64,000 bases of DNA, taken from the IMG/VR virus record IMGVR_UViG_3300037462_000758, positions 7,578-71,577 of that record. The stretch is one strand, 5' to 3'. The notes under the pieces were generated by a model, which was not told where the DNA came from, searched no databases, and was given only the letters and a program-made list of their open reading frames with translations. The translations under genes were made by a program, and so were the position numbers. This stretch comes from a virus. Below, one piece after another: positions 45,957-52,980 of this stretch. Each line of letters begins with the position of its first letter. Position 1 is the stretch's first letter.

Positions 45957-46736
45957 TCATACTGAAAATTCCTCAGGCATGGTTTCTTCGTCTGTATTTA
46001 TGACTTCAATGAGATCTTCGGAAAGAATAGGAACATAGAGGTCAATTTCCGACGATGCTTTTCCTGTCCTGTAAAAATTTAGCGCCTCTTCTCTTGAATG
46101 AGCAACATTTCCTCGTATAGTTGTTTTAGCAGTTTCGCCGAGCAGTTGCTTCAATAAAACCTCTCTGCGTTGAATAAGAATTGGTTCAACAGCAACACCA
46201 AATTCGTCAATGGCATTATAGAAAAAGCAGTTTTTGCTGCTAATACTACACTTCAAGGTGGTAGATGAACATCTACTATATCGAATATGTAACTCAGTAT
46301 CTGATTTATGCCTCATACTGCGAAAAATTGCTGAGACATAAGGCAAAATCATGCACGATGGAATAAATTCCGCAGGAACATCATCTAAGGCAATACTGTA
46401 TTTGACCATAATGTTTTTGGTGTTCCGAACTTCATGCACCATTAAATGAAGAGCAGCTTGCAATAGCTGGAAATCATTTTCAATTGTCGTTTCAAAGCGT
46501 CGTATTGCTCTGTGGGCAAGATTGATATACCTTCCCATCAATTCAATTTCTTGAGAAATTTCACCATCTTTTTCTCGTAATAATTCACCATAAGCAGTTG
46601 AGAAGTGCGAAACAATTTTTTGTGGTGGCAACGTTAGTTCCAGATTGCCTAAGCGCCACTCCATGAGAATATTTTTCCGCTCCAGAGTTTCAAGAATCGC
46701 CCCGATTGGTGTGCCATAAAAAACAGAGTTTCCCAT
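45957..46736 (-). CDS. Degenerate LytS/YehU-type histidine kinase cytoplasmic domain (pseudokinase)
   Basis: Follows the LytS template (Y.I..D, IP..MI.P.V, L.C.I, R..LL) but lacks H-box His, N-box and G1 residues; no TM. Confidence 0.6.
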   Translation of the reverse strand: MGNSVFYGTPIGAILETLERKNILMEWRLGNLELTLPPQKIVSHFSTAYGELLREKDGEISQEIELMGRYINLAHRAIRRFETTIENDFQLLQAALHLMVHEVRNTKNIMVKYSIALDDVPAEFIPSCMILPYVSAIFRSMRHKSDTELHIRYSRCSSTTLKCSISSKNCFFYNAIDEFGVAVEPILIQRREVLLKQLLGETAKTTIRGNVAHSREEALNFYRTGKASSEIDLYVPILSEDLIEVINTDEETMPEEFSV

Positions 46737-47062: not shown

Positions 47063-47791
47063 ATGGCAAAACGTTCCACAACGGCAGTCAGCACGAAAAT
47101 CGTTGCGATTGTCAATAACAAAGGCGGTGTTGGGAAGACGACTGCGACGGTACACATCGGTCACGCACTCGCGCAACTTGGTCATTCTGTCCTCTGCGTG
47201 GACATGGACGAGCAAGCAAATTTGGTGCAGTATTTTTTTAGCCGACGCAAAGTCAATCAACTGAAACAGGCACAAAATGGTGTACCACTGCCCGTTGAAA
47301 AACATGAAGGTACTAATGTTGATGTATTGATGCTGTCATCCTATATCGGCGTAAAGGACGATTATGTTGCAGCTATTAAACAATATGAAGGGAAGTATGA
47401 CTACATACTTTTAGATTCGCCTCCTGCGTTGGATGAGCGTACACACGCTTGTCTTGCTGCTTCAACAGGTATGCTTATCCCTACTGAAGCAGGAGCGCTG
47501 GCATTCTCCGGCACAGCGACACTCATAGCACTTGCGGAAGAGTACGGTACAGCTCTTTACGGTATTTTTCTGAATCTCTACGATGATAGAGTTTCAACGC
47601 AACGAGCATTTTACAGCACATATCAGACAAATTTTGCGGAGCAATTTCTTCCTATTGTCGTTAATCGAAATGCAATTTTCCCTAATTCTGCTATGCGTAG
47701 TATCACAGGTTTTGATTACAAAAAGAATGGGCATAAAGATTTGAGCGCCTACAAAACCATTGCTGAAATTGTTGTGAAAGGGGGAGTATAA
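47063..47791 (+). CDS. parA: ParA partition ATPase
   Basis: NNKGGVGKTT, VDMD.QAN, YDYILLDSPP. Confidence 0.95.
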   Translation: MAKRSTTAVSTKIVAIVNNKGGVGKTTATVHIGHALAQLGHSVLCVDMDEQANLVQYFFSRRKVNQLKQAQNGVPLPVEKHEGTNVDVLMLSSYIGVKDDYVAAIKQYEGKYDYILLDSPPALDERTHACLAASTGMLIPTEAGALAFSGTATLIALAEEYGTALYGIFLNLYDDRVSTQRAFYSTYQTNFAEQFLPIVVNRNAIFPNSAMRSITGFDYKKNGHKDLSAYKTIAEIVVKGGV

Positions 47792-48594: not shown

Positions 48595-48690
48595 AGCGGT
48601 AGCAAGTTGTTAGTGCATGAGGAAATGTTGTAAAAAGTGAGGAATAATGAGTAAGTTTGCGCTTCTTATTCCTTCTTTTTACACTATTTT

Positions 48691-49398
48691 TTGAGGTTCT
48701 CTGTGAATATTCTCGCTGCCATGTATTTGGCAATCGTATTTTGTGTCGCCCCGATGTTTGCTCAAAGTGCTGCTACACTTGAGCGCCCAAATAAGGCAAC
48801 GTATCACATCATTTCTCAAGTTGAGGCGAAAGAGATGATTGCTCGGTATCAGTCTATCAACCCGTTCAAATCATGGGCGTTCCACGCAGGAACACTTCCT
48901 GCCCCAATGCTGCAAACCCTGCTTTCACAGCCTGCTGCGGCATCGCTAGGGTACTACTATGCTTTGACAAGCGAAGGAAAACCGCAAATGATTTTTGTTG
49001 CAAGAACAGAGGAAGGAAACGATATTTTCTCCTCTAACGGCATCTTTACAGCGAACTATAATAATTCACCGCAAGAAGTTACTCCAGAGAACTTTCTTAC
49101 TGTGGAACAGGCGAAGCAGATGATAAAAAATTACCAAGCAAGTGCTGCCTTCAAAATACTTGGAAAACGCTCCGGTGGGGCGATGTTCAAGGAATCGGTG
49201 TTGAGTCTTTTACAACAGAGAGACGTTGCCGCTGCACGGTTTTACTTTGCGCTCGGTGCTGACAATGAACCCCGTATGGTAATGCTAGGTACGAACTCAA
49301 CAGGCACGATTGAGAACTCAGAAATGCTTTTAGATCGCGATTTTTGCCCGCCTTTTTGTAGTGGCGGTGGAAGCAGTTTGCAAACACTTGACCGATAG
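48691..49398 (+). CDS. Secreted tandem-domain protein with C-terminal CPPFC motif
   Basis: Signal peptide (..PMFA/Q); two copies of I/L...AK.MI..YQ...LL.Q..AA...Y.AL...G.P.M; TAAGTTTG promoter box at 48652. Confidence 0.8.
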   Translation: MRFSVNILAAMYLAIVFCVAPMFAQSAATLERPNKATYHIISQVEAKEMIARYQSINPFKSWAFHAGTLPAPMLQTLLSQPAAASLGYYYALTSEGKPQMIFVARTEEGNDIFSSNGIFTANYNNSPQEVTPENFLTVEQAKQMIKNYQASAAFKILGKRSGGAMFKESVLSLLQQRDVAAARFYFALGADNEPRMVMLGTNSTGTIENSEMLLDRDFCPPFCSGGGSSLQTLDR

Positions 49399-49402
49399 TT
49401 AT

Positions 49403-50044
49403 ATGGCTTTTACCTTTCCATTAGTTATTGCATTATGCGCTCTTGCTGTGCATGGTGTAGCAACTCTTGTCATTGTTCGGCGTTTGGCGGCTTCACGGCT
49501 GCCAAACGCTGCTTTGTATATCGCCGCGTTGATGGTTGTGGGGATGCTTAATGACACGCTTTCTCTTGTCGGCGGGCTTTTGAAATTTGTAACGTATGGC
49601 TATTTTCGAGCGCACCTCTATACTGTTATTGAACTTTGGCTATTTGCAATGTTTTCATTCAGCGCTGTGGCGGGAAAAATAGCGCGGCGGAGCATCATCT
49701 GTCTCGCTGTGGTTCTAACTGTTGTAAATGCTACGTTTCATTGGTACGGTTTGGATACGTGGAAAATGTTTGATAGTTATTCAAGCGGGGTTTCCGCGTT
49801 GGCAATTATTGCTTTTTGTTACATTGTTCTCTGGCAAAATTCACGCGATATTGTGCGTAGGGAAGAAAAACGCTGGTTGGGAATACTGTGCATAACGCTC
49901 ATTGGAACGTCGTTGGTTGATTTTCTTATCTTTTTCTATGTGAACTTGGCTCAAGTTGAAGAAAAAAATATCTGGTTTATTCACAATCTCGCCTCGATTG
50001 TTAAGTACTCAATTACCATCTACTGTTTTTGGAAAAAGCTATGA
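49403..50044 (+). CDS. Polytopic (about 7 TM) membrane protein, receptor candidate
   Basis: About seven hydrophobic segments; HLYT..E motif. Confidence 0.8.
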   Translation: MAFTFPLVIALCALAVHGVATLVIVRRLAASRLPNAALYIAALMVVGMLNDTLSLVGGLLKFVTYGYFRAHLYTVIELWLFAMFSFSAVAGKIARRSIICLAVVLTVVNATFHWYGLDTWKMFDSYSSGVSALAIIAFCYIVLWQNSRDIVRREEKRWLGILCITLIGTSLVDFLIFFYVNLAQVEEKNIWFIHNLASIVKYSITIYCFWKKL

Positions 50045-50256
50045 CACAAACTGAGTTTGCTATTGTTCTGGGAGTGGTCGTGTATGTTGTAAGTTTCATT
50101 GCAGGGGTTTGTCTGGCTTTGAAATTCCAGCGTGAAGTGCTTGAGCAGGAACTGGAAAAACGTATCGCATTGGTTCGCTCACAAATTCAACACGCGAATA
50201 CAAGTATTGATAACTATGAAGCGACACAAGCATCATCGAAAAATTGCAATAATTAG
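50041..50256 (+). CDS. Single-TM plus coiled-coil protein resembling a sensor-kinase N-terminal stub
   Basis: ATGA-coupled to membrane gene; ELEKRIALVRSQIQH resembles LytS E.E..ALRSQ.NPH. Confidence 0.6.
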   Translation: MTQTEFAIVLGVVVYVVSFIAGVCLALKFQREVLEQELEKRIALVRSQIQHANTSIDNYEATQASSKNCNN

Positions 50257-50295
50257 AAAATGCTATACGAAATTTTCCTGAATTTTGCAATAGCT

Positions 50296-50368
50296 CCCGG
50301 TCATTAGAATGGGGGTCTCGGTCATTACTTTTTTACTCTCGGTCATTAGAATGGGGGTCTCGGTCATC
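50296..50368 (+). promoter_or_regulatory. Four direct repeats at exact 21-bp period (LytTR-type boxes)
   Basis: CGGTCAT at 50298, 50319, 50340, 50361. Confidence 0.75.
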
Positions 50369-50490
50369 GGATTTGCATAAAAGAACCTTGTTCTAGAAAT
50401 TTGCAGTTTGAATTTTTTGCTTGAAATAATTTGGAAAGAGTTTCCTGAAAAATCAACAATGCTTCAAAAAAATGAATAGCTATGATGTGC

Positions 50491-50535
50491 AACCCAAGAA
50501 CCCAAGAACCCAAGAACCCAAGAACCCAAGAACCC
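50491..50535 (+). repeat. Tandem repeat (AACCCAAG)5.6
   Basis: Directly visible, 13 bp before regulator ATG. Confidence 0.95.
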
Positions 50536-50548
50536 TTCTTCTCAGATT

Positions 50549-51289
50549 ATGAACATTCTTTCAGCTGTCATCATTGATGACGAAGAACACATAAGAAACT
50601 TTCTTCGCAATCAGCTTGGTCAGCTTTTTCCCCAAAATGTACTTGTTGTAGGGGAAGCATACAGTGTAGATACCGCTGTGGGTTTAATTGCTGAGAAAAA
50701 TCCTGACATAGCATTTATAGATATAGATTTAGGTATGGGAACCGGGTTTGAGGTTCTAAGGATTCTTGAAGAGATGTTCGTACGTTTGCCCGCAATTGTG
50801 TTTATTTCCGGTTATACGGCATTTACCCAAAAAGCTTTTGACGTTGGCGCACGTGACTACATTGTCAAACCAATAACGCCAACTGTTTTGAAGATAAAAG
50901 TCGAACGATTAGTTGAAAGTATCAATGCTAAAGTTGTAAAGCACAAAGCAGAGCTACAAAAACTTCCTTTTGCGATTTTTCAAGACCGTATTCTTATTCC
51001 TGTGGGCAACCGTAAAGACTTTGTACATATAGATTCGATTAAGTTTATCGAAGGTGAGCGGTCGCAGAGTAAAATCATCTGCAAAGAAGAGAAGGAATAC
51101 ATCATGTCGCATACACTACAAGATTTCGAGCTTGCATTTGCCGAGCGACATTTCGTGCGTGTGCATAAGTCATATGTGGTCAATTTTGCGTGTGTTGAAT
51201 CGGTGTTTACCCGCGAGCGGCAGATGTTCCTAAAAATCGGAGATAAGGATATTCCGGTGGGTGATGCGTATCGGAAGAAATTGCCGTGA
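50549..51289 (+). CDS. LytR/AlgR (LytTR) family response regulator
   Basis: IIDDE, PD..FIDI.L, GFE, DYIVKP; I.FIE, F.RVHKSY.VN, IPVG..Y. Confidence 0.95.
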   Translation: MNILSAVIIDDEEHIRNFLRNQLGQLFPQNVLVVGEAYSVDTAVGLIAEKNPDIAFIDIDLGMGTGFEVLRILEEMFVRLPAIVFISGYTAFTQKAFDVGARDYIVKPITPTVLKIKVERLVESINAKVVKHKAELQKLPFAIFQDRILIPVGNRKDFVHIDSIKFIEGERSQSKIICKEEKEYIMSHTLQDFELAFAERHFVRVHKSYVVNFACVESVFTRERQMFLKIGDKDIPVGDAYRKKLP

Positions 51290-51338
51290 GAGTGTGAATC
51301 TTATTTCAATCATTTCATAAAAACTTGTTGCTTTTCCT

Positions 51339-52517
51339 ATGTCAAAATATATCTACTTAGGGAACCCTCTTTCTGGAATCGAAGAACTTGATGCTTTTAT
51401 TGCCATAAACGATTTCGCAGCTAAGGTCAATAGTATGAAAATAGATAACCTAGGTGAGTTAGATTTAGAGCGTTATCGACAATTACAATTTTTGACAAAT
51501 TATTGTAAAGAAGCACTCTCTTCATTCAACCTTGATTTTTTAGGTGGAACCGCGAGTACAGTTCTTGATTACAAAATTCAAAGTATTGCCAGTGCGATAA
51601 GAAATACAAATAACTCACTTGCGCAATCGACAGTAGAGTTTGCTATACAAAGTGGTTTACAGAATATCCGTAATAATGTTATTCCAATTGTCGTTGCCTT
51701 GCCAAGTGGTATTATAGGAGAACAAACAAACGCACTAAAGGCATCCATGCAAACGTTGGAGCATTTTTTACAGCACAGTCAAAGTGTTATTGATAAAGCA
51801 AGACAGTTTGAAAATACAGCAAATTCCTTGCGGGAAAAAATTGATCAATATGATGTAAGGATTGAAGGTAAGTTGCGCGAAATTTCTGATTATGCCACAC
51901 AAAGATTGAATCAACTTGAAGGGAATTATACGGAAAGTCAAAAAGCTATACTTACGGAGGCAAAAAGCAAAATTGATACAGCAAAAAGTGATTTGGACAA
52001 AGAAGTGGAGGAAGTAAGAAAAATAGCACAGGTATTGGCTGTAAACGGTATTGCTGGCGGATATTCACAACAAGCGCTTGACCAAGATAAAGCATATAAG
52101 CGATGGCGCTGTGGAGCAATCGGTTTATTTTCATGTAGTGCCGTGATAGCTGCTTTGGTCTTAATTTTCATCAACAATAAACTGGAATTAAACGAGTACG
52201 GACCAAAACTCTTAAGCTCACTTGTAGTGTTGTTGCCTGGGTTTTATGCCGCAAGGGAGGCAGAAAAACACCGAAAACTAGCCGAGCATTACCAAAAAAT
52301 GGAATTGGAATTTGTGACACTTAACCCGTACCTGAATGACTTAGAAGTAGAGACAAAGCAAAAAATTAAACAAGACCTGATTGGTCAGTATTTTACTGGT
52401 GCAAAAACATTAGGGCAGGGAGAAAGTTTAGATTCTAATGAGTTGGACATACTCAAGAAATTGATTGAGGCAGTAAGAGAGGTTCCTTCAAAAGTTCTTG
52501 ATAAGTTTTTGAAATAA
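51339..52517 (+). CDS. Coiled-coil protein with two C-terminal TM helices (AT-rich moron)
   Basis: 392 aa; GY...A, two TM segments, Y.AREA.KHR...ELE...L.PY. Confidence 0.75.
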   Translation: MSKYIYLGNPLSGIEELDAFIAINDFAAKVNSMKIDNLGELDLERYRQLQFLTNYCKEALSSFNLDFLGGTASTVLDYKIQSIASAIRNTNNSLAQSTVEFAIQSGLQNIRNNVIPIVVALPSGIIGEQTNALKASMQTLEHFLQHSQSVIDKARQFENTANSLREKIDQYDVRIEGKLREISDYATQRLNQLEGNYTESQKAILTEAKSKIDTAKSDLDKEVEEVRKIAQVLAVNGIAGGYSQQALDQDKAYKRWRCGAIGLFSCSAVIAALVLIFINNKLELNEYGPKLLSSLVVLLPGFYAAREAEKHRKLAEHYQKMELEFVTLNPYLNDLEVETKQKIKQDLIGQYFTGAKTLGQGESLDSNELDILKKLIEAVREVPSKVLDKFLK

Positions 52518-52519
52518 GC

Positions 52520-52552
52520 AAAAGCCCCGCCAGAACACCACTGACGGGGCTT
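52520..52552. terminator. Hairpin/terminator between convergent genes
   Basis: AAAAGCCCCG...CGGGGCTT. Confidence 0.55.
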
Positions 52553-52560
52553 GTTCATTC

Positions 52561-52980
52561 TTAATCCTCCCGCACAAGTTCAGGCGCTTGTATCTCCCAC
52601 GCTGCCTCATCATACCCGGGCAACCTTCGGCCGCAACTGTGAACGATGGTATCTATTACCTCCCGTGCAAGGGAAGTCTCCCATGTTGGGGATTCGATTG
52701 CTTGGTATTCGTAACAATGTGCTGCCTTAATCACCTGAACCGGCGCATACACTCTTGTTTGAGATTTATACACAAAGGGCGGGGTAGTCATCTCTTCGCT
52801 GTACCGACTGCAATATGAACGGTAATTCTCATCCAACAACGCCTGACCGATACACTGCATATCTGCGGCATTGTCTGGGTCAAAGTAGAGTTCTCCAATC
52901 CAAATTCCATCCCGCTTTAAGCGGCGAAGAGTTGTTACAAGAACGTTGATGTGATGCTGGTTTACGATGAAAACACTCAT
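52561..52980 (-). CDS. Hypothetical mobile-element protein
   Basis: MS.F.V...HI..L, L..EN.RS...RY, KA..CY.YQ..E...W..S.A. Confidence 0.7.
   Translation of the reverse strand: MSVFIVNQHHINVLVTTLRRLKRDGIWIGELYFDPDNAADMQCIGQALLDENYRSYCSRYSEEMTTPPFVYKSQTRVYAPVQVIKAAHCYEYQAIESPTWETSLAREVIDTIVHSCGRRLPGYDEAAWEIQAPELVRED

What the first reader, a model, noticed from the sequence alone, without database searches (positions are those of the whole stretch)
48652..51289. Phage-encoded extracellular signalling module: secreted CPPFC protein, 7TM protein, kinase stub and LytTR regulator
Seen: one co-oriented cluster with its own TAAGTTTG promoter box. It encodes a signal-peptide protein with two copies of one domain ending DRDFCPPFC, a roughly 7-TM protein, an ATGA-coupled 71-aa TM/coiled-coil ending in a LytS-like RSQIQH, then 21-bp-phased boxes and an intact LytTR regulator. 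Established: LytTR regulators (AgrA, ComE) run peptide quorum-sensing circuits, whereas known phage communication (arbitrium) is RRNPP-based. Inference: this may be an agr-like communication or host-eavesdropping system of a Gram-negative phage, with the CPPFC disulfide loop or the whole protein as signal or signal-making enzyme. From memory, similar CPPxC / membrane protein / kinase / regulator neighbourhoods occur uncharacterised in Bacteroidota chromosomes; I could not verify this.
Basis: partly seen in the sequence, partly recalled or inferred. Interest (0 to 1): 0.88.

Follow-up and report, generated by a model that had tools for sequence, protein, structure and literature searches.

The report
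Kinase-less signalling cassettes in a phage
A phage of Bacteroidota-type bacteria carries the sensing half of a common but unnamed bacterial signalling operon, next to a stand-alone gene regulator with its own binding sites; neither part has a kinase, so the phage probably plugs into its host's sensing pathways rather than running a communication system of its own.

Summary
The sequence features are real: an exported two-domain protein ending in CPPFC, a 7TM protein, an ATGA-coupled 71-aa membrane/coil ORF, four CGGTCAT boxes in exact 21-bp phase, and an intact REC-LytTR regulator.

The cluster is two cassettes, not one agr-like circuit.

Cassette A (48691-50256) is the input half of an unnamed Bacteroidota operon: CPPxC protein, 7TM protein, single-TM histidine kinase, NarL-type regulator.
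- The CPPxC profile matched 48 of 401 Bacteroidota genomes and 0 of 602 genomes in two other phyla.
- Of 61 chromosomal loci, 60 have the 7TM gene directly downstream, 54 have a kinase, 39 have a REC+GerE regulator and 0 have LytTR.
- The phage keeps only a stub at the kinase position.

Cassette B (50285-51289) is the box array plus the LytTR regulator.
- Homologous arrays lie beside LytTR regulator genes in two bacterial metagenome contigs, one with a LytS-type kinase.
- Another lies in a second phage near a CI-like repressor gene.

No kinase domain was found in the 71.6-kb record. The "LytS-like RSQIQH" reading and the promoter box are not statistically supported.

Earlier notes of this scan describe kinase-less phage copies of cassette A on other DNA. 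The LytTR unit and the shared operator array appeared in none of the earlier notes my look-ups returned.

The parts
48652..48659 (+). TAAGTTTG, a candidate Bacteroidota -7 promoter box 32 nt before the TTG start
   Evidence: The box is present. The motif class occurs at chance frequency in the window, 52 against 54.6 expected. The promoter consensus is recalled, not tested.
48691..49398 (+). Exported two-domain CPPxC-family protein (235 aa): signal-peptide-like N-terminus, two alpha/beta repeats, C-terminal LDRDFCPPFCSGGG tail
   Evidence: ORF. Hydrophobic N-terminus. One close homologue at 53% identity keeps LDRDxCPPxCxGGG. 181 representative proteins match at E <= 1e-3, with no Pfam or NCBIfam family. 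AF2 model has pLDDT 87.4 and pTM 0.81.
49403..50044 (+). Stand-alone 7TM protein (213 aa), a distant member of the 7TM partner family of the chromosomal cassette
   Evidence: About 7 hydrophobic segments. hhalign against 21 chromosomal partners: probability 85.8%, E 5.4e-6, 168 columns. hmmsearch scores 17.7 bits against 4.4 for the best of 200 shuffles. The Atlas model has TM 0.82-0.85 to ~210-aa Bacteroidota proteins.
50041..50256 (+). 71-aa ORF (one TM helix plus charged coil) at the position of the cassette's single-TM histidine kinase; read as a kinase stub
   Evidence: ATGA overlap. TM at residues 1-31. Chromosomal kinases start with the same layout. The sequence support is weak: hhalign E 1.3e-3, probability 18%, TM helix only. 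No catalytic domain follows.
50285..50384 (+). Operator-like array: TTGCAATAGC, four (C/T)CGGTCAT(T/C) boxes at 50297, 50318, 50339 and 50360, then GGATTTGCAT
   Evidence: Homologous arrays with conserved boxes and phase occur in L169 (a phage) and in L187 and L192 (bacterial contigs with LytTR regulators).
50491..50535 (+). Tandem 8-bp repeat AACCCAAG, five copies, ending 13 bp before the regulator's ATG
   Evidence: family D1. Function unknown.
50549..51289 (+). Intact REC-LytTR response regulator (246 aa), with no kinase of its own in the record
   Evidence: Pfam Response_reg 2.5e-17 and LytTR 1.1e-14. PHROG 8810 at 5.8e-28. Closest cellular relatives are about 30% identical, in Bacteroidota MAGs, next to His_kinase-type kinases.

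Best explanation
The region is a composite of two kinase-less pieces of Bacteroidota two-component systems. They are carried as accessory genes by a ParA/ParB-bearing phage.

Piece A (48691-50256) is the input half of a widespread, unnamed four-gene operon: CPPxC protein, 7TM protein, single-TM histidine kinase, NarL-type regulator. The phage keeps three things: an exported, tandemly duplicated CPPxC protein, the 7TM protein, and the first 71 codons (membrane helix plus coil) at the kinase position.

Piece B (50285-51289) is a four-box operator array plus an intact REC-LytTR regulator, of the kind found in bacterial LytS/LytTR loci.

Shown:
- the homologies and the gene order;
- the lack of kinase domains in the record;
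- the link between this array family and LytTR regulator genes.

Inferred:
- The regulator is phosphorylated by a host LytS-type kinase.
- It binds the array as two dimers and controls its own promoter.
- The piece A proteins sit in the host inner membrane and couple to, or jam, the host's homologous sensor-less kinase, with the stub acting as an adaptor or a dominant-negative partner.
- The phage thereby reads or rewires host envelope or population signals instead of making a signal of its own.
For: Phage context:
- Tape measure, major head protein and large terminase are present, as are ParA and ParB. The record is an IMG/VR virus record of 71,577 bp.

Piece A:
- The CPPxC profile finds 181 representative proteins.
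- It matches 48 of 401 genomes of the phylum of a Saprospiraceae MAG. It matches 0 of 301 genomes in the phylum of a Proteiniclasticum genome and 0 of 301 in the phylum of a Colwellia genome.
- Of 61 chromosomal loci, 60 have a 7TM gene within 500 bp downstream on the same strand. 54 have a histidine kinase, 39 a REC+GerE regulator, 38 all four genes, and 0 a LytTR or LytS-type gene.
- Pfam on the third genes: 14 of 18 have HATPase_c, 8 HisKA, 6 HisKA_3. Pfam on the fourth genes: 9 of 13 have REC+GerE.
- The phage 7TM matches the partner-family profile.
- The chromosomal kinases begin with one TM helix and a coil, as the stub does.

Piece B:
- The regulator's domains are intact.
- L187 reads LytS-type kinase (Y_Y_Y, His_kinase, HATPase_c), then REC-LytTR regulator, then array.
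- L192 reads array, then REC-REC-LytTR gene.
- The boxes and the 21-bp phase are conserved while the spacers diverge.

Kinase and maintenance:
- PF06580 and PF02518 give no match at E <= 10 in the whole record.
- The one close CPPFC homologue keeps the C-terminal motif.
- A 95-99% identical relative in a freshwater run shows 4 synonymous and 2 conservative changes in 383 bases of the 7TM gene.

Earlier notes of this scan (unchecked here) describe kinase-less phage copies of the same cassette, one with an 87-residue stub.
Against: - The stub's relation to the kinases rests on position and layout. Profile comparison aligns only the TM helix (probability 18%).
- No function is known for any CPPxC or 7TM partner protein.
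- Some chromosomal CPPxC proteins have no N-terminal hydrophobic segment, so the family's compartment is not uniform.
- The second phage with the array has no LytTR regulator in its 37 kb, which is 46% complete. The array need not work with a phage-borne regulator.
- The two pieces are adjacent and co-oriented, so a functional link between them is not excluded.
- The record is only about 70% complete; a kinase could lie in the missing part.
- The host is unknown.
- Binding of the regulator to the boxes is untested.
Confidence: 0.55

Rival explanations
1. One integrated agr-like circuit: the exported CPPFC protein, or a peptide cut from it, is the signal. The 7TM protein and the stub receive it. 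The LytTR regulator answers and feeds back through the boxes, giving phage-phage communication.
For: - The genes are co-oriented, with tight coupling of the first three.
- The first protein looks exported.
- The boxes have LytTR-like architecture directly upstream of the regulator.
- A phage with agrB/agrD/agrC is on record (PMC4124054, passages read).
Against: - The record has no kinase catalytic domain to pass a signal to the REC domain.
- In 61 chromosomal loci the CPPxC-7TM pair goes with HisKA or HisKA_3 kinases and NarL-type regulators, never LytTR.
- The array family occurs with LytTR regulators in contigs that hold no CPPxC or 7TM gene.
- The CPPFC protein is a confidently folded two-domain protein, not a short precursor.
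- The 7TM protein gives no AgrB-type Pfam match at E <= 0.1.
Confidence: 0.1
2. Decaying host cargo. Both pieces are non-functional remnants of host operons picked up by illegitimate recombination and on their way to loss.
For: - The kinase position is reduced to 71 codons, and neither system has a kinase.
- The nearby ORF 45957-46736 looks, weakly, like a degenerate LytS-type kinase (BLASTP E 0.014).
- The 7TM protein is very divergent from its chromosomal relatives, at 10-20% identity.
Against: - All four ORFs are open, with close coupling.
- The regulator keeps both domains and the receiver residues.
- The 53%-identical CPPFC homologue conserves the motif.
- Changes in a related phage are mostly synonymous: 4 of 6 in the 7TM gene, at low depth.
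- The array is the best-conserved non-coding stretch between two phages whose terminases are only 55% identical.
- Earlier notes of this scan report repeated, independent phage captures of the sensor half (unchecked).
Confidence: 0.2
3. The four 21-bp phased repeats are iterons or a partition site of a plasmid-like prophage. They would be bound by a replication or ParB-type protein, not by the LytTR regulator.
For: - parA and parB lie 1.7 kb upstream.
- Directly repeated ~21-bp units are typical of iteron origins and some centromeres (recalled).
- The second phage has the array without a LytTR gene in the part known.
- A weaker box pair lies inside parA (47158-47185, 2 mismatches).
Against: - In L187 and L192 the homologous arrays lie in bacterial contexts beside LytTR regulator genes. 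L187 has a LytS-type kinase. L192 has Lon and a SusC-like receptor. Among the 9 ORFs of at least 90 aa scanned there, no Pfam rep or par match appeared.
- In the window the array lies 182 bp before the LytTR gene, which is comparable with L192.
Confidence: 0.1

Closest known systems
Unnamed Bacteroidota four-gene cassette (CPPxC protein / 7TM protein / single-TM HisKA_3 or PAS-HisKA kinase / NarL-type regulator), defined here from 61 loci and noted earlier in this scan
   Same: The first two genes are homologous and in the same order and spacing. The third position starts with the same TM-plus-coil layout and overlaps the 7TM gene.
   Different: The phage CPPxC protein is a tandem two-domain, exported form. 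The kinase is cut to 71 aa. The NarL-type regulator is missing, and a LytTR regulator with its own operator follows instead.
Accessory-protein-dependent sensor kinases such as LiaFSR, BceRS-AB and UhpABC (recalled from the literature, not read here)
   Same: A kinase with almost no extracytoplasmic part is encoded beside a polytopic membrane protein that presumably does the sensing.
   Different: No sequence relation was tested or found. The 7TM and CPPxC families have no Pfam model. The phage copy lacks the kinase altogether.
agr quorum sensing (AgrBDCA) and the agr3 cassette of Clostridioides difficile phage phiCDHM1 (PMC4124054, passages read)
   Same: A phage carries part of a host-type signalling operon and is thought to hand the signal to host components. 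A LytTR regulator with direct-repeat operators is involved.
   Different: phiCDHM1 has agrB, agrD and agrC but no regulator. This phage has a regulator but no kinase, no AgrB-like or AgrD-like gene, and a Bacteroidota-type host.
LytTR operators of AgrA, ComE and PlnC-type regulators (9-10 bp direct repeats with 12-13 bp spacers; recalled)
   Same: Short direct repeats 21 bp centre to centre, in pairs, upstream of the regulator's own gene.
   Different: The box sequence (CGGTCAT, or GGTAAT in the bacterial arrays) is unlike the recalled Firmicute boxes. Binding is untested.
HdrRM / BrsRM LytTR regulatory systems of streptococci (recalled)
   Same: A LytTR regulator is controlled by a small membrane protein without any kinase. 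This would be a way for the 7TM or stub proteins to act on the regulator.
   Different: Those regulators have no receiver domain. This one has an intact one.

Membership tests
LytTR-type response regulator (AgrA/ComE/LytT class) | N-terminal receiver domain with phospho-acceptor Asp | tested here: met
   Response_reg 2.5e-17, residues 7-118. D10, D11, D58, S87 and K107 read from the sequence against a recalled consensus.
LytTR-type response regulator (AgrA/ComE/LytT class) | C-terminal LytTR DNA-binding domain | tested here: met
   PF04397 at 1.1e-14, residues 158-245.
LytTR-type response regulator (AgrA/ComE/LytT class) | Cognate LytS/AgrC-type kinase encoded with it | tested here: not met
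   PF06580 and PF02518 give no match at E <= 10 in the 71.6-kb record. The record is about 70% complete.
agr-type peptide quorum sensing | Short AgrD-like precursor peptide | tested here: not met
   The exported protein is 235 aa and folds as two alpha/beta domains, pLDDT 87.4.
agr-type peptide quorum sensing | AgrB-type membrane peptidase | tested here: not met
   The 7TM protein has no AgrB Pfam match at E <= 0.1. It belongs to the 7TM partner family of the chromosomal cassette.
agr-type peptide quorum sensing | Membrane histidine kinase receptor | tested here: not met
   Only a 71-aa TM/coil ORF is present, and no HATPase_c domain. PF14501 was not searched on its own.
Bacteroidota CPPxC-7TM-kinase-regulator cassette (unnamed) | First gene encodes a CPPxC-domain protein | tested here: met
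   Profile search gives 181 hits. Single-domain and two-domain forms end at the CPPxC motif.
Bacteroidota CPPxC-7TM-kinase-regulator cassette (unnamed) | 7TM partner gene directly downstream on the same strand | tested here: met
   A 4-nt gap in the window. hhalign probability 85.8%, E 5.4e-6. 60 of 61 chromosomal loci have it.
Bacteroidota CPPxC-7TM-kinase-regulator cassette (unnamed) | Single-TM histidine kinase with HisKA or HisKA_3 plus HATPase_c as third gene | tested here: not met
   The third ORF has the TM-plus-coil start only. Catalytic domains are absent. 54 of 61 chromosomal loci have the kinase.
Bacteroidota CPPxC-7TM-kinase-regulator cassette (unnamed) | REC+GerE (NarL-type) regulator as fourth gene | tested here: not met
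   The phage regulator is REC+LytTR. 39 of 61 chromosomal loci have REC+GerE and 0 of 61 have LytTR.
LytS-type histidine kinase (PF06580), as proposed for the stub's RSQIQH | H-box region matching the His_kinase model | tested here: inconclusive
   No Pfam match at E <= 0.1. hhalign aligns 9 columns, E 0.042, probability 1.2%. The stretch is too short to decide.

The most novel reading that the evidence does not exclude
Phages of Bacteroidota repeatedly take the sensing half of a host envelope-sensing operon in kinase-less form. Some also take operator arrays of a host LytS/LytTR pathway, and this phage takes a regulator as well. The stub and 7TM protein would dock onto the host's own sensor-less kinase. 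The LytTR boxes would put phage promoters under host signal control: here the regulator's own gene, and in a second phage a promoter that points into the 3' end of the CI-like repressor gene. Host two-component signalling would then be a regular input into phage maintenance or induction decisions in this phylum. This would be a kinase-free eavesdropping mode distinct from arbitrium and from the agr cassette of phiCDHM1.
Probability: 0.2. Interest if true: 0.8.

Novelty: new variant of a known kind. Interest (0 to 1): 0.62.

Why it matters
- The bacterial cassette behind piece A occurs in about one in eight sampled Bacteroidota genomes. It has no Pfam or NCBIfam model for its two leading proteins, and I found no description in print with three searches.
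- Phage copies that keep only the sensor side are natural separation-of-function variants. They say which parts act together.
- Finding the same LytTR-type operator array in bacterial LytS/LytTR loci and in two distantly related phages gives a concrete, testable link between a host signalling pathway and phage gene control. Temperate-phage decision making is almost unstudied in this phylum.

Tried and rejected
- Close relatives of the CPPFC, 7TM and regulator proteins in IMG/VR: none confirmed. JGI metagenome contigs with alignment A5: none.
- INPHARED phages: no DNA match to 48600-52600. No tblastn match to the phage CPPFC protein or to a chromosomal member. LytTR-regulator-like matches occur in 26 of 50,697 records, many of them fragments.
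- Word-based protein search: only the window's own 7TM protein and ORF 45957-46736 were found.
- ESM Atlas for the CPPFC protein: best score 0.84, a lead only.
- Fold of the CPPFC protein: Foldseek against the PDB gave nothing at E <= 0.001. VIA-align gave sliding clamps at Z 5-6.5 (139 aligned, rmsd 4.0 for the best). That is below the level where it means more than a shared two-repeat arrangement. I do not read it as a clamp.
- Complex prediction of the 7TM protein with the mature CPPFC protein: no verdict, score 0.00 against a mark of 0.32. This is not evidence either way.
- ORF 45957-46736 as a dead LytS-type kinase: pairwise BLASTP is collinear at E 0.014. hhalign against six LytS kinases gives E 0.35. 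There is no PDB sequence match. The single-sequence AF2 model has pLDDT 38.5 and was not searched. Left open.
- A loose three-box pattern in IMG/VR returned 13 unrelated 21-bp tandem repeats and no regulator nearby. Uninformative.
- Twenty chromosomal loci searched with the phage proteins alone missed the 7TM partners. They were found only by position and TM count, then by profile.
- The closest cellular relatives of the regulator (57 loci) hold no CPPFC or 7TM homologue.
- Sequencing runs: no RNA holder listed. X1 is probably the source sample.
- Supplementary files of papers were not consulted.
The contigs of P0002 and P0004-P0011, the nearest CPPFC relatives, could therefore not be seen.


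Full report
WHAT IS THERE. The window is bases 7578-71577 of a 71,577-bp IMG/VR virus record, rated linear and about 70% complete. It carries a tape measure protein, a major head protein and a large terminase. ParA and ParB genes lie directly upstream of the finding.

Four co-oriented ORFs sit at the reported coordinates:
- 48691-49398, 235 aa, TTG start.
- 49403-50044, 213 aa, starting 4 nt after the previous stop.
- 50041-50256, 71 aa, with an ATGA overlap.
- 50549-51289, 246 aa, after a 292-bp spacer.

The spacer holds four (C/T)CGGTCAT boxes at 50297, 50318, 50339 and 50360, exactly 21 bp apart. It also holds five copies of an 8-bp repeat just before the last gene. The paired-box pattern occurs without mismatch nowhere else in the window. 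The TAAGTTTG box at 48652 is present, but its motif class occurs at chance frequency, 52 against 54.6 expected.

THE FIRST PROTEIN. It has a hydrophobic N-terminus and two homologous alpha/beta repeats. Only the second repeat ends in the CPPFC motif. Only one close homologue exists, at 53% identity, and it keeps LDRDxCPPxCxGGG. A full HMMER search found 181 representative proteins at E <= 1e-3. They are ~100-aa single-domain and ~220-aa two-domain forms that end at CPPxC. Neither Pfam nor NCBIfam has a model for them. The AF2 model is confident, with pLDDT 87.4 and pTM 0.81. It has no convincing structural relative.

THE CHROMOSOMAL CASSETTE. The single-domain profile matched 48 of 401 genomes drawn from the phylum of a Saprospiraceae MAG. 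It matched 0 of 301 genomes in the phylum of a Proteiniclasticum genome and 0 of 301 in the phylum of a Colwellia genome. I fetched 61 loci from those 48 genomes. Two things were left out: hits whose E-value in the list was weaker than that of G099:C10, and further copies in G129. The loci were annotated with local profiles. Counts:
- 60 of 61 have a 207-254-aa multi-TM gene within 500 bp downstream on the same strand. The exception is a 1,092-bp contig.
- 54 of 61 then have a histidine kinase.
- 39 of 61 have a REC+GerE regulator.
- 9 of 61 have a hybrid kinase.
- 38 of 61 have all four genes.
- 0 of 61 have a LytTR or LytS-type gene.

Pfam agrees on a subset. Of 18 third genes, 14 have HATPase_c, 8 HisKA and 6 HisKA_3, often with PAS. 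Of 13 fourth genes, 9 have REC+GerE. The kinases begin with a single TM helix and a coil and have almost no outside part. Among the chromosomal CPPxC proteins, some have an N-terminal hydrophobic segment and others none.

HOW THE PHAGE GENES RELATE TO THE CASSETTE. The phage 7TM protein is a distant but detectable member of the partner family. hhalign gives probability 85.8%, E 5.4e-6, over 168 columns. hmmsearch gives 17.7 bits against 4.4 for the best of 200 shuffles. The ESM Atlas model has TM 0.82-0.85 to stand-alone ~210-aa Bacteroidota proteins, and 0.67-0.71 to the 7TM input modules of GGDEF, AraC and GerE proteins.

The 71-aa ORF sits where the kinase should be, overlaps the 7TM gene as the kinases do, and has the same TM-plus-coil start. 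Profile comparison, however, aligns only the helix (E 1.3e-3, probability 18%). I call it a kinase stub by position. That is an inference. Its supposed LytS-like H-box is not supported.

THE REGULATOR AND ITS BOXES. The regulator has intact REC and LytTR domains. Its nearest cellular relatives are about 30% identical, in Bacteroidota MAGs. In two of the three best loci (L002, L003) a kinase with PF06580 and HATPase_c lies within 1 kb downstream; the third (L004) has one two genes on.

A specific pattern from the array found homologous arrays in three other places:
- A second phage record (G1008, 37 kb, 46% complete). There the array is 84% identical over 99 bp, while the terminases are 55% identical and most genes are unrelated.
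- Metagenome contig L187. It reads LytS-type kinase (Y_Y_Y, His_kinase, HATPase_c), then REC-LytTR regulator, then array, then a 109-aa ORF.
- Metagenome contig L192. It reads Lon C-terminus, then array, then a REC-REC-LytTR gene, and further on a SusC-like receptor.

In all four arrays the flanking TTGCAATAGC and GGATTTGCAT, the four boxes and the 21-bp phase are kept, while the spacers vary. The bacterial arrays use GGTAAT where the phage arrays use GGTCAT. The array therefore goes with a LytTR regulator gene in 3 of 4 contexts, which is what an operator would show.

In G1008 no LytTR gene was found. There the array lies about 200 bp beyond the 3' end of an S24-peptidase (CI-like) gene and points towards it.

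NO KINASE. PF06580 and PF02518 give no match at E <= 10 anywhere in the record. ORF 45957-46736, on the other side of parAB, aligns collinearly but weakly with a LytS-type kinase, with changed H-box and N-box residues (E 0.014). The profile test fails (E 0.35), and the single-sequence model is unusable (pLDDT 38.5). I leave it open.

POPULATION DATA. One wetland run holds the region without differences and is probably the source. A freshwater run from another study holds 95-99% identical pieces of the CPPFC, 7TM and regulator genes. The 7TM piece has 6 changes in 383 bases, 4 synonymous and 2 conservative, at depth 2-3. In the wetland run the assembly breaks at the array, and other contigs carry array-like copies with unlike flanks.

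READING. The cluster is two cassettes. Piece A is the sensing half of the CPPxC-7TM-kinase-NarL operon with the kinase cut to a stub. Piece B is a LytTR regulator with an operator array of a kind used in bacterial LytS/LytTR loci. The most likely working has two parts, and both are inferred:
- The regulator is phosphorylated by a host kinase and controls its own promoter through the boxes.
- The exported CPPxC protein, the 7TM protein and the stub engage or block the host's homologous kinase.

I put this at 0.55. The rivals are decaying cargo (0.2), an integrated agr-like circuit (0.1) and iterons or a centromere (0.1).

COMPARISON AND NOVELTY.
- Phage-borne parts of host signalling systems are known. 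The phiCDHM1 agr cassette and LytTR homologues in Pseudomonas phages are mentioned in passages of PMC4124054.
- PHROGs already holds a LytTR-regulator family.
- Earlier notes of this scan, which I did not check, describe the four-gene cassette in soil Bacteroidota and three other phages with kinase-less copies, one with an 87-residue stub. My independent derivation agrees with them.
- None of the earlier notes returned by my three look-ups mentions three features seen here: the tandem exported CPPxC form, the LytTR unit in place of the NarL regulator, and the operator array shared between bacterial LytS/LytTR loci and two phages.
- I found no description of the cassette in print. The searches were CPPxC (0 papers) and Bacteroidetes / HisKA_3 / seven transmembrane / NarL (2 papers, neither on it by title and abstract). 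The LytTR-phage search gave listings only, apart from the one paper read in passages.

Noticed in passing
window 50491-50535: Five tandem copies of the 8-bp unit AACCCAAG end 13 bp before the regulator's start codon. A repeat of this kind could change copy number by slippage and alter expression.
   Followed up: no
window 45957-46736 (- strand): A 259-aa ORF without TM segments aligns collinearly but weakly with LytS-type kinases, with altered H-box and N-box positions (BLASTP E 0.014, hhalign E 0.35). It has no homologue in the 5.8-billion protein set, and its AF2 model has pLDDT 38.5. It may be a pseudokinase. Unresolved.
   Followed up: partly
window 47158-47185: A weaker pair of CGGTCA-type boxes at the same 21-bp spacing (2 mismatches) lies inside the parA coding sequence. 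It is the only other pair in the window below 3 mismatches.
   Followed up: partly
L169 4050-4140 (phage record G1008): A homologous four-box array sits about 200 bp past the 3' end of an S24-peptidase (CI-like) gene and points towards it, ahead of a 65-aa ORF that converges on that gene. If a LytTR regulator activates it, transcription would run antisense into the repressor gene.
   Followed up: partly
window 50261-50418, runs X1-X3: Public assemblies break at the array. Several other contigs in wetland and freshwater metagenomes carry array-like copies with unrelated flanks, so the element is repeated across genomes in these habitats.
   Followed up: partly
window 48691-49398: The two repeats of the CPPFC protein pack into a pseudo-dimer whose nearest solved arrangements are sliding-clamp domains (Z 5-6.5). 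Single-domain relatives may form the same shape as homodimers.
   Followed up: partly
L091, L130, L133, L135: Some chromosomal cassettes carry two or three tandem 7TM paralogues between the CPPxC gene and the kinase.
   Followed up: no
window 51339-52517: A 392-aa protein rich in charged, repetitive sequence, with one TM segment (residues 256-282), follows the regulator after 50 bp on the same strand. It has no family match above threshold.
   Followed up: no
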